From: Mobula birostris
Taxonomy: Eukaryota
Length of the DNA: 64,000 bases
Reading direction: 5' to 3'
Assembly (NCBI RefSeq): GCF_030028105.1
Contig: NC_092398.1
Coordinates: 25,745,649-25,809,648 of the forward strand
In this document: one piece after another, positions 30,001 to 33,000 of the stretch
Layout: the number at the start of each line of letters is the position of its first letter
How positions within the stretch are numbered: the stretch's first letter is position 1
Made by a program: the position numbers

Positions 30001-33000
30001 CACTCCAACCCCTCCTCCCTCCGACTCACACCCCTCACTCCGACACACACACTTCACTCAGCCCCCCTCCTCCCTCCGACATAAGCTCCTCGCTCGGCCC
30101 CCCTCCTTTGACATACAACCCTCACTCCACTCACCTCCGACACACGCCCCTCACTAAAAGCAACATTTTGAACAACAGTCGAAAATTAGGCATGTTTAAT
30201 TGTGGGTGGAGGGATTGTTGAGGGATGGGGTACACAGTCGGTACACCGCAGGCTGCAGAGACAGAGACCATTAAAGCACGCTGTAAACTGATCTCACGGG
30301 GGAAGGGAGGGTAGGACGGAAAGGTGGAGGCAGGTTGGGACGGGGTGGCGAGGATGGGTTAGGACGGACGGCTTCCCTCAGGCGGGTGCGCTGTGTTTGT
30401 GCTCCAGGGACTCGAACTCCGGGCTCGGTGGCTCCTGCGTCCTTCGCAGCCGCTCCTTCACTTGAACGAACTCGGGCGCTCCCTCCGCTGCCGCCCGGGC
30501 CGCCAACTCCAGTCTCAGCAGCTGCGGGGAGGGAGAGGAGAGAAAGCTGTCACTCAGGGGAGACCCACCCTGACAAGCCACGCCCACCTAATGACACACC
30601 CTTTCGCATCAAGACCCACCCACAGACAAGCGATGCCACACCCTCCCTTGTGTCCCTTCCCCGCCCCTCATCGCCTGGCCCTGCCCCCCCTCTGCAAGGC
30701 CCGCCCCCAATCCCTTGCCCCACCCCCTGTGTGGCCCCACCCCCTCACCACAAGGCCCCACTCCTCATTCCTGAGCCCCTCTGCCTCACCTCCTCTTTCT
30801 TCTGTTGCCTCCTGAGGAACTCTCGCTGGAGTGGGGAGTGTCCCAGGGGCTCATCCTGCGCCCTGCGCTGTTCCCGCTGTTCCAGAACCTTCTGCAGCTC
30901 CGTCTTGCTGGCCAAGCCCCTTGGGGACGGGGAAGAGTTTGTTAGTAGGTGTGAGTGGTTCAGGGGTTGGGAATGGTAACTACCCACACCTCCCCTCCCA
31001 TCCCCATCAACCCCTCCCCCCACCCCCACCCCCCCTTTGCAATCCCCTCCTGCCCATCAACCCCTCCCCTGCACACACTTCACCACTTCCCCTTCTCTCC
31101 TCACACATATCCTCACCCTGCCCCTCCTCCCTACATTCCTACCCCCATCACTTCCCCCAACATTTCCCTCCCCCTTCCGCGCCCCCTCACCTGCGGTGGG
31201 CAAGGCGCAGTTCGCGGTGCAGGTCCTGGTGAGTCCAAGCTGCCTTCACCGGGCCCAGGGCCGGGAGCATCCTCTTCCCTGAGTCCCTTGGCTGCAGCCC
31301 TGGGGAACACCAGCCTTTAGTGTGGTCGTGACTGCCAATGCTCCTCCAACCCTTCCACCTCCCCCCCTCCGTCCACAGTCCCTCACTACCCTAACTCCGA
31401 GTATTAACCCCCCCCCATGCTCCCTCAATTGCTCCATGGAGTTTCCCTCAGGCCAAGGGACTCTCATCATCTTATCCCCTTGAATATTTCCAAGGGAAAC
31501 CACTCCACTGTGCCCCCTCAATCCCTCTAGGCTCCCTCAATTCCACCAAGTGATCCTTATCTTCTTCCTTCCACTTTGCTCCCTCTAGACTCCCCCTTTT
31601 CTAGGTTCCCTCAACTCCTCTAAGGTGTCCACTTCCCCTATGCTCCCTGATTTTTTTTTTGAAAGGACTCCCTCCTCTACGCTGTCAATCCTTCTGAGGG
31701 ATCTCCCCCCCCCCCCGGCTCCCTCACTTTCCAAGCACTCCCGCTCTACTGTGCTCCTCCTGTTCTTTCTCCCTGTGGACTGAGAAACGCAGCTAGAGTT
31801 CAAACTTTAAGGGTGTGAAGTGATTAACTTTGGGAGACAGAATTAGAAGGCAGAATACGGGATTGAGGGCAGCGTGGAGGATCAGGGTCCTGGGGTCCAT
31901 GTCCATGGATTTCTCTAAGTTGCCGGGCAAGCTGATAGGGCCGTTAAGATGATGTGTGGTGTGTTGGCCTACAATAGTCAGGGGATTGAGTTCAAGAGCC
32001 GTGAGGTAATGTTTCAGCTCTATAAAACCCTAGTCAGACCACACTTGGGAGTATTGTGTTCAGTTCTGGTCACCTCACCATAGGAAGGGTGTGGAGAGGG
32101 TGCAGAGGAGATTTACTAGGATGCTGTCTGGATTAGAGAGCATGTCTTCTGGACAAAGGTGGAGTGAACTAGGGCTTTTCACTTTAGAATGAAGGAGGAT
32201 GAGAGGTGACTAGATAGAGGTGTAGAAGATGATACAAGGCACTTAACCACACATTGCTCTGCGACGACACCAGTGCCAATCTGTATGGGTCCTAGTGCCC
32301 TTCCCTTGGACAACATCGGTGGTGTGGAGAGGGGAGACTTGCAGCATAGGCAACTGCCAGTCTTCCATACAACCTTGCCCAGGCCTGTGCCCTGGAAACC
32401 TTCCAAGGTGCAAATCCATGGTCTCACAAGACTAACGGATGCCTATATATAAACATGATGATAAGAGACAGAGATAGGGTGGACAGTCATAGACATTTTC
32501 CCAAGGTGAAAGAGGCTAATACGAGGAAGCACAATTTTATGGAGATTGGAGGAAAGTGTAGGGGGGAATACAAGAGGTAAGTTGCCTTATGCAGAGACTG
32601 GTGAGTGCACGGAATGCATTTCGAGGGGCAGTGGTAGAGGCAGATATGTTTGGGACATTTAAGAAACTCTTAGATAGGCTCAAGGATGATGGATAAATGG
32701 AAGGAAGGGTTAAATTGATTGTAGAGTGGGTTAAAGGGTCAGCACAACATTGTGGGCTGAAGGGCCTGTACTGTTCTCATTCACTATTCTGAGTTCACAC
32801 CCACCTCAGAGCTGCTCCTCCCCAACCCCATTCACAGAGAGCACGGCCGAGCTCCCACTTCTACCCCCATCCCTCCACCGACCCCTCCCTTTAACTTCAG
32901 CTGAACTTTAACCCATGGAACGCCAGAGGCTGAGGGGAGACCTGGGAGATGTGTTTAAGATATTGAGAGGCAAAGGTAACAGTAGAAACTTTTTCTTTGC

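What the first reader, a model, noticed from the sequence alone, without database searches (positions are those of the whole stretch)
30378..31299. Divergent FAM107 gene beside FAM3A: candidate third FAM107 ohnolog
Seen: three clean exons encode all FAM107 hallmark motifs (HQDLHREL, KTELQKV, RRQQK, PEFVQVK..LRRT) but with a shortened N-terminus and coiled coil. The ORF track splits the gene and misses the first exon's frame. Established: human has FAM107A next to FAM3D on 3p14 and FAM107B on 10p13, and I know of no FAM107 gene beside FAM3A on Xq28. Inference: this FAM3A-FAM107 pair is the whole-genome-duplication sister of FAM3D-FAM107A, retained here and lost in mammals.
Basis: partly seen in the sequence, partly recalled or inferred. 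Interest (0 to 1): 0.72.

Follow-up and report, generated by a model that had tools for sequence, protein, structure and literature searches.

The report
FAM3A-linked FAM107 gene in manta ray
A small, already annotated manta-ray gene of the actin-binding FAM107 family lies just behind FAM3A and probably belongs to an old, unnamed third branch of that family that mammals seem to lack; this is a modest evolutionary footnote, not a new kind of gene.

Summary
Three minus-strand exons (31270-31191, 30919-30790, 30521-30378) with GT-AG introns encode a 117-aa FAM107/DUF1151 protein. Of 2401 six-frame pieces of the window, only these three match FAM107 profiles. Exon searches return an identical public record, "protein FAM107B [Mobula birostris]", so the gene is already annotated. 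FAM3A ends 4.9 kb upstream on the same strand, in a block with RENBP and RPL10.

A third FAM107 clade does exist, in ray-finned fishes, amphibians and squamates. It is named inconsistently in databases (FAM107A, FAM107B, LOC numbers, si:ch211-218o21.4), and my searches found no paper on it. Maximum-likelihood trees put the manta gene in it (98/98; SH-aLRT 99), and its 15-residue linker fits (15-17, against 20-23 in A and B).

The placement is not secure:
- AU tests do not reject grouping with A or B (p 0.26-0.45).
- The clade-profile margin is 4.3 bits, against at least 21.9 for true members.
- The clade's N-terminal exon is absent, and long-branch attraction is possible.

Separate A and B loci in the manta, and FAM3A linkage of the clade in other species, could not be checked. 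Interest is low to moderate.

The parts
31191..31270 (-). Coding part of exon 1 (ATG 31270-31268; 26 codons + 2 nt; holds PVKA..HQDLHREL)
   Evidence: DUF1151 profile 10-31, E 2.7e-4; E 6.2e-8 against the third-clade profile
31271..31299 (-). Stretch upstream of the ATG that follows an AG at 31301-31300: 5' UTR or possible acceptor. The frame stays open upstream, but no upstream coding exon was found.
   Evidence: sequence; no N-terminal motif exon in the window
30920..31190 (-). Intron 1, 271 nt, GT..AG, phase 2
30790..30919 (-). Exon 2, 130 nt (KTELQKVLE .. SPLQREFLRRQQKKEE; short linker)
   Evidence: profile 36-81, E 1.3e-4; 100% to public record; E 1.8e-12
30522..30789 (-). Intron 2, 268 nt, GT..AG, phase 0. 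Read-through models of relatives in every clade break at the aligned position.
   Evidence: inference from rows printed
30378..30521 (-). Coding part of exon 3 (APEFVQVKERLRRT; stop TGA 30380-30378)
   Evidence: profile 91-109, E 0.058; 100% to public record; E 1.5e-3
30195..30200 (-). ATTAAA, polyadenylation-signal-like, 178 nt after the stop; the only such hexamer between the stop and the repeat array
21773..30041 (.). 8.3-kb array of a 36-bp unit (about 242 copies), C-rich on the + strand, starting about 340 nt downstream of the stop. It creates long artefactual ORFs.
36171..45752 (-). FAM3A coding exons (pieces at 44985-45752, 44453-44686, 42910-43209, 42208-42330, 40929-41204, 40466-40831, 36171-36287). 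The last coding exon ends about 4.9 kb upstream of the FAM107 ATG.
   Evidence: reading; Pfam ILEI E 6.5e-10 on 40466-40831; best solved structure FAM3A 7ecq, E 1e-14 and 4.9e-16, ahead of FAM3C and FAM3B
7094..13767 (-). RENBP (N-acylglucosamine 2-epimerase) exons; two N runs (10261-10796, 10798-11458) lie inside and were left alone
   Evidence: PF07221 on 7094-7672 and 8084-8557; 1fp3, E 2.1e-19 on 13315-13767; N runs
60337..61402 (-). RPL10 (uL16) exons
   Evidence: PF00252 on 60569-60787 and 61055-61402; E 1.1e-26 on 60337-60528

Best explanation
This is a real, intact three-exon gene of the giant manta ray (Mobula birostris). It encodes a 117-residue FAM107/DUF1151 protein and is already in RefSeq under the automatic name 'protein FAM107B'. 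It lies 4.9 kb downstream of FAM3A on the same strand, in a block that also holds RENBP and RPL10. It is most likely not the FAM107B orthologue. More likely it is the cartilaginous-fish member of an unnamed third FAM107 subfamily (the zebrafish si:ch211-218o21.4 type), which ray-finned fishes, amphibians and squamates also keep. The FAM3A-FAM107 pair would then be the old duplicate of the FAM3D-FAM107A pair. By inference from mouse FAM107A/DRR1, the protein is a small, mostly helical, non-globular actin-binding protein. A first helix (HQDLHREL, exon 1) and a last helix (PEFVQVKERLRR, exon 3) would bind F-actin. They are held apart by a coiled-coil spacer (exons 2-3) that is about 5 residues shorter than in FAM107A/B. 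It lacks both the acidic N-terminal extension of A/B and the N-terminal 'ELWLxAK' helix of the other third-clade proteins.

Shown: gene structure, family membership, neighbours, best tree position. Inferred: orthology with the third clade, genome-duplication origin, actin function.
For: Structure and family.

Identity with the public record and organism.

A second, unnamed record (P0005, 74 aa, 73-75% identical over 71 residues) has the same short N-terminus and breaks at the exon 2 donor, so the gene exists in at least one more genome.

Neighbours.

Third clade:
- In the 71-row IQ-TREE careful tree, the manta row plus P0005 sit in a 25-row clade with support 98/98.
- In the 105-row tree they sit in a 48-row clade with SH-aLRT 99. 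It holds 36 of the 37 named rows (bichir, gar, Amia, teleosts, amphibians, squamates). The one named true FAM107A (a bat) falls on the other side.
- Linker length is 15 in both ray rows. It is 15-17 in 43 of the 44 third-clade rows that could be measured (one has 10), 20-22 in B, 17-18 in a fish group and 21-23 in A.
- Clade profiles scored exon by exon: third 80.6 bits, fish A 76.3, B 62.0, fish group 57.1, tetrapod A 55.6. Exon 2 alone scores 38.8 against 23.8 for B. Leave-one-out classification was right for 103 of 103 rows.
- All 11 columns invariant across the 25-row alignment are kept.

Pairing: human FAM107A and FAM3D are both overlapped antisense by one lncRNA (PMC4436665, passages). 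In the window, FAM3A and the FAM107 gene are likewise on one strand.

Architecture: an AlphaFold model of the gar relative made with the 25-row alignment has core helices 73-89, 97-117, 121-148 and 151-162 (mean pLDDT 71.9, pTM 0.29), onto which the three manta exons align.

Against: - AU tests do not reject holding the two ray rows with 30 B-like rows (dlnL 3.55, p 0.348), with 11 B-proper rows (5.97, p 0.263) or with 27 A-like rows (1.67, p 0.446).
- The ray pair sits on a long stem (about 1.0 changes per column) and the third clade is itself fast-evolving, so long-branch attraction is possible.
- The profile margin for the third clade is only 4.3 bits (10.2 for P0005). The smallest margin of any accepted third-clade row is 21.9.
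- Median raw identity to the third clade (38.0%) is not higher than to B (43.4%) or fish A (41.8%).
- The N-terminal 'ELWLxAK' exon typical of the clade is not found anywhere in the window (best E 0.3, on the wrong side of the gene).
- One fused teleost model joins a third-clade FAM107 to an EFHD1/2-like gene, not FAM3A, so linkage to FAM3A is not evident there.
- No transcript evidence or dN/dS was available.
- Whether the manta has separate A and B genes is unknown.
Confidence: 0.55

Rival explanations
1. It is an old FAM3A-linked FAM107 paralogue, but not the orthologue of the bony-vertebrate third clade. It would be a separate lineage kept only in cartilaginous fishes, or a fast-evolving ray-specific copy of an A- or B-type gene. 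Its place in the third clade would be long-branch attraction.
For: AU tests leave A and B groupings open. The profile margin is 4.3 bits against at least 21.9 for true members. Raw identity is highest to B and fish A. The clade's N-terminal exon is missing. A teleost third-clade gene sits beside an EFHD-like gene.
Against: Both trees place it in the third clade with high branch support. The short linker matches that clade. Exon 2 clearly prefers the third-clade profile over the B profile (38.8 against 23.8 bits). A recent copy landing by chance directly behind a FAM3 gene, on the same strand as in the human FAM3D-FAM107A pair, would be an unlikely coincidence (inference).
Confidence: 0.25
2. 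NCBI's name is right: this is the manta's FAM107B (or FAM107A) orthologue. It is much diverged and has been moved next to FAM3A, and there is no other copy of that gene in the genome.
For: The public name. Median identity is highest to B-type rows (43.4%). AU does not reject it.
Against: B-type rows are very conserved among themselves and have a 20-22 residue linker; here it is 15. The B profile scores 18.6 bits less than the third-clade profile. The neighbours are FAM3A, RENBP and RPL10, all on human Xq28 by recall, not 10p13 or 3p14 genes. Names in this family are demonstrably unreliable: rows of one clade are called FAM107A, FAM107B or uncharacterized.
Confidence: 0.1
3. It is not a working gene but a decaying copy or an annotation artefact in G+C-rich, repeat-rich DNA.
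For: No expression data were seen. The protein is short. An 8.3-kb minisatellite follows directly. No recognisable upstream exon was found.
Against: The frame is open across three exons with canonical splice sites and a stop. All family-invariant residues are kept. A second record from another genome keeps the same start and is 73-75% identical. The profile hits are colinear.
Confidence: 0.05

Closest known systems
Unnamed third FAM107 subfamily (zebrafish clone-based name si:ch211-218o21.4; gar W5NB19; many 'FAM107A', 'FAM107B' and LOC records of teleosts, amphibians and squamates)
   Same: Best tree position. Short linker of 15-17 residues with a conserved [ST]PL. Highest clade-profile score. 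Same helical core.
   Different: No N-terminal 'ELWLxAK' helix or disordered N-terminal region; the protein has 117 aa against 125-260. The C-terminal motif is PEF..V....LRRT as in A/B and squamate rows, not the (L/M)EFVRVRQNLRK of ray-finned fishes. The profile margin is far smaller than for any accepted member. Linkage to FAM3A is known only here.
FAM107A (DRR1/TU3A), 144 aa in mammals
   Same: Same Pfam family. Same four-helix core and the motifs HQ(E/D)LHREL, PELQ.VLE, LL.RQQ, PEF..V..NLRR. It lies beside a FAM3 gene on the same strand (human FAM3D; PMC4436665 passages). The intron after the RQQ...(Q/E) position is shared (inference from the read-through rows).
   Different: The neighbour here is FAM3A, not FAM3D. 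The linker is 15 residues against 21-23. About 30 N-terminal residues are lacking. The tetrapod A profile scores 25 bits lower. Actin binding is tested only for mouse DRR1 (PMC6321462).
FAM107B (HITS), 131 aa in mammals: the name NCBI gives this record
   Same: Same family. Highest median raw identity (43.4%). HQDLHREL is identical in B-type rows.
   Different: The linker is 15 residues against 20-22, and SPL stands where B has SDL. There is no acidic N-terminus. The B profile scores 18.6 bits lower. On the best trees it falls outside the B rows. Human FAM107B is on 10p13 (PMC3990222, passages), whereas the neighbours here are Xq28-type genes (human positions recalled).

Membership tests
FAM107 / DUF1151 (Pfam PF06625) | Match to the Pfam profile | tested here: met
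   Each exon matches colinearly (21.4, 22.4, 13.9 bits; each alone is under the 25-bit cut-off). The public record identical to the model carries PF06625 precomputed. Only 3 of 2401 window pieces match family profiles.
FAM107 / DUF1151 (Pfam PF06625) | Conserved motifs and invariant residues of the core | tested here: met
   All 11 invariant columns of the 25-row alignment are kept. The motifs are read.
FAM107 / DUF1151 (Pfam PF06625) | Helical, non-globular architecture with a central coiled coil | tested here: inconclusive
   Only a gar relative was modelled, with the manta row in the alignment: four core helices, pLDDT 71.9, pTM 0.29. The manta protein itself was not folded, and no coiled-coil prediction was run.
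FAM107 / DUF1151 (Pfam PF06625) | F-actin binding, bundling and capping | not testable with these tools
   Known for mouse DRR1 only (PMC6321462, abstract and passages).
Third FAM107 subfamily (si:ch211-218o21.4 type) | Falls inside the clade on a family tree | tested here: inconclusive
   It is inside with support 98/98 and SH-aLRT 99. But AU does not reject A or B groupings (p 0.446, 0.348, 0.263), and the stem is long.
Third FAM107 subfamily (si:ch211-218o21.4 type) | Short linker between ELQ.VLE and [ST]PL | tested here: met
   15 residues. The clade has 15-17 in 43 of 44 measured rows; A and B have 20-23.
Third FAM107 subfamily (si:ch211-218o21.4 type) | N-terminal exon with the 'ELWLxAK.QVL' helix | tested here: not met
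   No match in the window: regular expression; profile of 15 motif segments against 2401 pieces, best E 0.3 at 18491-18529, which is downstream of the gene. Some accepted members' records also lack it.
Third FAM107 subfamily (si:ch211-218o21.4 type) | Clear preference for the clade's own profile | tested here: inconclusive
   It is the best of the five profiles, but by 4.3 bits (P0005: 10.2). True members have margins of at least 21.9, median 62.
Third FAM107 subfamily (si:ch211-218o21.4 type) | Shared chromosomal neighbourhood (FAM3A) in other species | not testable with these tools
   No vertebrate genome collection was on hand. One fused teleost model points to an EFHD-like neighbour.
FAM107B orthologue (NCBI's name) | Groups with B-type rows; B-type linker; B-type N-terminus | tested here: not met
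   It is outside the B rows on both trees. The linker is 15 against 20-22. The B profile scores 18.6 bits lower. AU alone cannot exclude it.
FAM107A orthologue | Lies beside FAM3D; A-type linker | tested here: not met
   The neighbour's exons match FAM3A best among solved FAM3 structures (no FAM3D structure exists to compare). It sits with RENBP and RPL10. The linker is 15 against 21-23.
Ohnologue pair (FAM3A-FAM107 / FAM3D-FAM107A) | Both pairs in paralogous blocks with the same order and strand; duplication older than the split of cartilaginous and bony vertebrates | tested here: inconclusive
   The window half is shown. Of the human half, only adjacency and same strand come from a paper; order and map positions are recalled. 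Dating depends on the insecure tree position.

The most novel reading that the evidence does not exclude
FAM3 and FAM107 were already a linked, co-oriented gene pair before the two vertebrate genome duplications. The FAM3A-linked FAM107 copy survives in cartilaginous fishes (seen here still beside FAM3A), ray-finned fishes, amphibians and squamates as an unnamed third subfamily ('FAM107C'), and it was lost in mammals and probably in birds, turtles and crocodilians. A fish-only group of 19 rows may be a further old branch.
Probability: 0.4. Interest if true: 0.45.

Novelty: new member of a known kind. Interest (0 to 1): 0.3.

Why it matters
FAM107A/DRR1 and FAM107B/HITS are studied as stress-induced actin regulators and tumour suppressors. 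The one family review I read says only that mammals have two genes (PMC3990222, passages). A third, widely kept but unnamed and inconsistently named subfamily means that 'FAM107A' and 'FAM107B' labels in fish, frog and lizard data sets often point to a different gene. That can mislead expression and knock-out comparisons. The manta locus would give this subfamily a positional anchor (FAM3A) and one more marker for reconstructing the Xq28 / 3p14 paralogous blocks. It changes nothing about how such proteins are thought to work.

Tried and rejected
1. A bacterial promoter and terminator scan of 30000-30400 found nothing and does not suit a vertebrate gene.

2. Word-indexed searches with exon 2 and exon 3, asking for longer proteins, found only the manta record itself. 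Relatives share too few exact words with single exons.

4. I looked for an upstream 'ELWLxAK' exon by regular expression and by profile and found none.

5. AU tests meant to exclude A or B placement excluded nothing.

6. The fused Scortum barcoo model was followed as a clue to neighbours. Its partner is EFHD1/2-like, which says nothing for FAM3A linkage.

7. Literature searches:
- 'FAM107C': 0 papers.
- 'ch211-218o21.4': 0 papers.
- FAM107 + ohnolog: 0 papers.
- FAM107 + paralog: 38 papers, 15 listed, none on family evolution by title or abstract.
- FAM107 + 'genome duplication': 5 papers, none relevant by listing. One passage of PMC7915175 only lists fam107b in a sole BAC.
- DUF1151: 5 papers.

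8. Pfam did not recognise 5 of the 7 FAM3A exon pieces or the RENBP piece at 13315-13767. A search of solved structures did recognise the latter.

9. A fold search with the gar model was not run: at pTM 0.29, an extended bundle of helices would give meaningless matches.

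Full report
WHAT IS THERE. On the minus strand, three exons (31270-31191, 30919-30790, 30521-30378) are joined by two short GT-AG introns of 271 and 268 nt. They read MLPALGPVKAAWTHQDLHRELRLAHR / GLASKTELQKV...FLRRQQKKEE / LLRLEL...APEFVQVKERLRRT...*. The lengths add to 354 nt, which is 117 codons and a stop. The donors are CAG|GTGAGG and GAG|GTGAGG, and both acceptors follow pyrimidine runs. An ATTAAA lies 178 nt after the stop.

Each exon on its own hits Pfam DUF1151 (PF06625) in colinear order, at E 2.7e-4, 1.3e-4 and 0.058. As a chance control, I scored all 2401 six-frame stop-to-stop pieces of the window against FAM107 profiles built without the manta rows. 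Only the three pieces that hold these exons matched (E 1.8e-12, 6.2e-8, 1.5e-3; next best 1.8).

I did not build, search or fold a joined protein of my own.

WHOSE GENE IT IS. Exon 2 and exon 3 each return one protein at 100% identity: a 117-residue NCBI/UniRef record named 'protein FAM107B [Mobula birostris]', from a 40.6-Mb contig. The window is therefore giant manta ray, a batoid cartilaginous fish, not human. Full-length comparisons below use that public record (P0004).

SURROUNDINGS. All recognisable genes are on the minus strand.
- RENBP: Pfam GlcNAc 2-epimerase on 7094-7672 and 8084-8557; pig epimerase 1fp3 at E 2.1e-19 on 13315-13767.
- An 8.3-kb array of a 36-bp unit, 21773-30041.
- The FAM107 gene.
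- FAM3A: exon pieces from 45.7 kb down to 36171. Pfam ILEI on one piece. The best solved structure is FAM3A 7ecq (E 1e-14 and 4.9e-16), ahead of FAM3C and FAM3B. No FAM3D structure exists for comparison.
- A LINE reverse transcriptase.
- RPL10.

FAM3A's stop is 4.9 kb upstream of the FAM107 ATG. By recall, FAM3A, RENBP and RPL10 are all on human Xq28.

THE FAMILY. An exhaustive phmmer search with the public record found 110 representatives at E <= 1e-3, 9 at <= 1e-10 and none at <= 1e-30. The best is P0005: 74 aa, 73-75% identical over 71 residues, with the same short N-terminus, and it breaks exactly at the exon 2 donor. Every other representative is at most about 50-58% identical.

These rows carry no names, and the tool that could name them is switched off. 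I therefore dropped 40 of the 111 rows that carry tetrapod A/B N-terminal motifs and could be human.

A careful IQ-TREE of the remaining 71 rows (150 columns) puts the manta row and P0005 (100/99) inside a 25-row clade with support 98/98. Using those 25 rows as a profile, the word-indexed search gave 135 hits at E <= 0.1 among 8000 scored candidates, of which 120 were listed. By my hand count the listed rows are:
- 23 squamate rows;
- 7 amphibian rows;
- 5 non-teleost ray-finned rows (gar, bowfin, bichir);
- about 82 teleost rows (by subtraction);
- 2 rows without an organism;
- 1 mammal, a bat FAM107A, at the bottom with the lowest score.

No bird, turtle, crocodilian, other mammal, lungfish, coelacanth or other cartilaginous fish was listed. 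With a capped list and a capped candidate set, this is not proof of absence.

The names of these rows are inconsistent: 'actin-associated protein FAM107A', 'protein FAM107B', 'uncharacterized LOC...', 'si:ch211-218o21.4'.

A second tree had 105 rows and 133 columns (quick search). It combined the 71 rows, 10 of the 40 dropped rows that I judged non-mammalian, and 24 named rows. It again gives a third clade, of 48 rows (SH-aLRT 99), which holds the manta pair and 36 of the 37 named rows. The named bat FAM107A and the A-type and B-type rows fall on the other side. Inside the clade the order roughly follows the species tree.

EVIDENCE BEYOND THE TREE. The linker between ELQ.VLE and [ST/D][PL] is 15 residues in both ray rows. 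The other groups measure as follows:
- third clade: 15-17 in 43 of the 44 rows that could be measured, one row with 10;
- B-type: 20-22 (11 of 11 rows);
- a 19-row fish group: 17-18 (18 of 19);
- A-type: 21-23 (20 of 27).

Clade profiles on the core columns, scored exon by exon, sum to 80.6 bits for the third clade, 76.3 for fish A-type, 62.0 for B, 57.1 for the fish group and 55.6 for tetrapod A. Subsampling the third clade to 8-19 rows keeps medians of 72.8-80.2. Leave-one-out classification was right for 103 of 103 rows (full-length profiles give 86.3, 71.7, 56.6, 58.0, 46.4).

Read-through models in several clades (among them P0005, P0087, P0073, P0064, P0079, P0081, P0096, P0109, P0104) all leave the family sequence right after the residue aligned with the end of manta exon 2. 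That intron position therefore seems shared by the whole family, and the manta gene is no retrocopy. This is an inference from the rows printed.

EVIDENCE AGAINST A FIRM PLACEMENT.
- AU tests on the 105-row set do not reject holding the ray pair with 30 B-like rows (dlnL 3.55, p 0.348), 11 B-proper rows (5.97, p 0.263) or 27 A-like rows (1.67, p 0.446).
- The ray pair sits on a stem of about one change per column, and the third clade is itself fast-evolving: 35.7% median identity between its tetrapod and ray-finned halves. Long-branch attraction cannot be excluded.
- The manta's margin for the third-clade profile is 4.3 bits (P0005: 10.2). No accepted member has less than 21.9.
- Median raw identity is 38.0% to the third clade, 43.4% to B and 41.8% to fish A. 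This probably explains NCBI's name.
- The N-terminal 'ELWLxAK.QVL' helix that most full third-clade records carry has no counterpart anywhere in the window. P0005 starts at the same place as the manta protein, so the short N-terminus seems real for this lineage.
- A fused model from the teleost Scortum barcoo joins a third-clade FAM107 to an EFHD1/2-like protein. In that fish at least, the neighbour is not FAM3A.

THE DUPLICATION ARGUMENT. In man, one lncRNA is antisense to both FAM107A and FAM3D, so the two are adjacent and co-oriented (PMC4436665, passages). By recall, FAM3D lies upstream of FAM107A. The window shows the same arrangement with FAM3A. A copy landing by chance directly behind another FAM3 gene in the same orientation is unlikely. 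The simplest reading is a FAM3-FAM107 pair that was duplicated as a block. It is still an inference, and it does not show that the bony-vertebrate third clade is the same lineage.

HOW IT LIKELY WORKS. Mouse DRR1/FAM107A is predominantly helical. [quoted passage not shown] It bundles, caps and nucleates actin filaments and probably dimerises through the middle domain (PMC6321462, abstract and passages).

An AlphaFold model of the gar third-clade protein, made with the 25-row alignment, has core helices at 73-89, 97-117, 121-148 and 151-162. Its mean pLDDT is 71.9 and its pTM 0.29, so it is extended rather than globular.

By the alignment, manta exon 1 covers the first core helix. Exon 2 covers the second and the first half of the third. 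Exon 3 covers the rest of the third and the last. The manta protein keeps all 11 invariant columns.

I therefore expect a minimal FAM107 protein: two terminal actin-binding helices on a spacer about five residues shorter than in A/B, without the N-terminal extensions of any other subfamily. None of this was tested.

NOVELTY. The gene is annotated. The family is known. The third subfamily is visible in public protein sets, but I found nothing in print about it. The searches were 'FAM107C' (0 papers), 'ch211-218o21.4' (0), FAM107 + ohnolog (0), FAM107 + paralog (38 papers, 15 listed, none relevant by title or abstract) and FAM107 + 'genome duplication' (5, none relevant). The family review states only that mammals have two genes (PMC3990222, passages). 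Supplementary files, which may list the zebrafish gene, were closed. I rate the finding a new member of a known kind, of low to moderate interest.

LEFT OPEN.
- Whether the manta has separate FAM107A and FAM107B loci.
- Where the third-clade gene lies in other vertebrates.
- Transcript support and dN/dS.
- The organism of P0005.

No vertebrate genome collection was on hand, and the closed collections would not have helped. The two N runs (10261-10796, 10798-11458) were left as they are.

Noticed in passing
window 21773-30041: An 8.3-kb minisatellite of about 242 copies of a 36-bp unit, 87% matching, strongly C-rich on the + strand (GC skew about -0.9). It starts about 340 nt after the FAM107 stop and produces artefactual ORFs of up to 885 aa.
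   Followed up: partly
window 41066-42168, 45296-45618, 46195-47669, 9145-9828, 4123-4582: Further minisatellites (units of 47/93, 44, 32, 17-18 and 52 bp) lie inside or beside FAM3A and RENBP. The block is unusually rich in G+C-rich tandem arrays.
   Followed up: no
window 7094-13767, 30378-31270, 36171-45752, 60337-61402: RENBP, the FAM107 gene, FAM3A and RPL10 all lie on the minus strand within 55 kb. By recall the three known ones are on human Xq28 but not adjacent there, so the manta block is more compact or differently ordered.
   Followed up: partly
proteins (P0018, P0034, P0037, P0050, P0054, P0061 and 13 others): A well-supported group of 19 unnamed rows (98/96; SH-aLRT 98) is sister to the B-type rows and has its own linker length of 17-18. 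It may be a further old FAM107 branch or a fish-specific duplicate.
   Followed up: no
listing: Database names in the third clade are inconsistent. Orthologous rows are called FAM107A, FAM107B, uncharacterized LOC, si:ch211-218o21.4, and in one herring record 'nuclear fragile X mental retardation-interacting protein 2'.
   Followed up: partly
P0161 (Scortum barcoo, 336 aa): A fused gene model. Residues 66-197 match EF-hand domain-containing protein D1/D2 (E 1.5e-58) and the C-terminal part is a third-clade FAM107, so the two genes are probably neighbours in that teleost.
   Followed up: partly
window 2619-3197 (+), 49196-50182 (+): Retrotransposon remnants: an endonuclease/exonuclease/phosphatase ORF (E 1.4e-6) and a reverse-transcriptase ORF of 329 aa (E 7.1e-27). 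Many short ORFs elsewhere carry the same retroelement-like motifs.
   Followed up: partly
window 10261-10796 and 10798-11458: Two N runs separated by one base, inside the RENBP region. They were left untouched.
   Followed up: no
P0190 (Xenopus tropicalis): The frog third-clade record comes from a 147,241,510-bp contig. By recall that is the length of chromosome 8, which I believe carries the frog's Xq28-type genes. This is a lead for the linkage test, not evidence.
   Followed up: no
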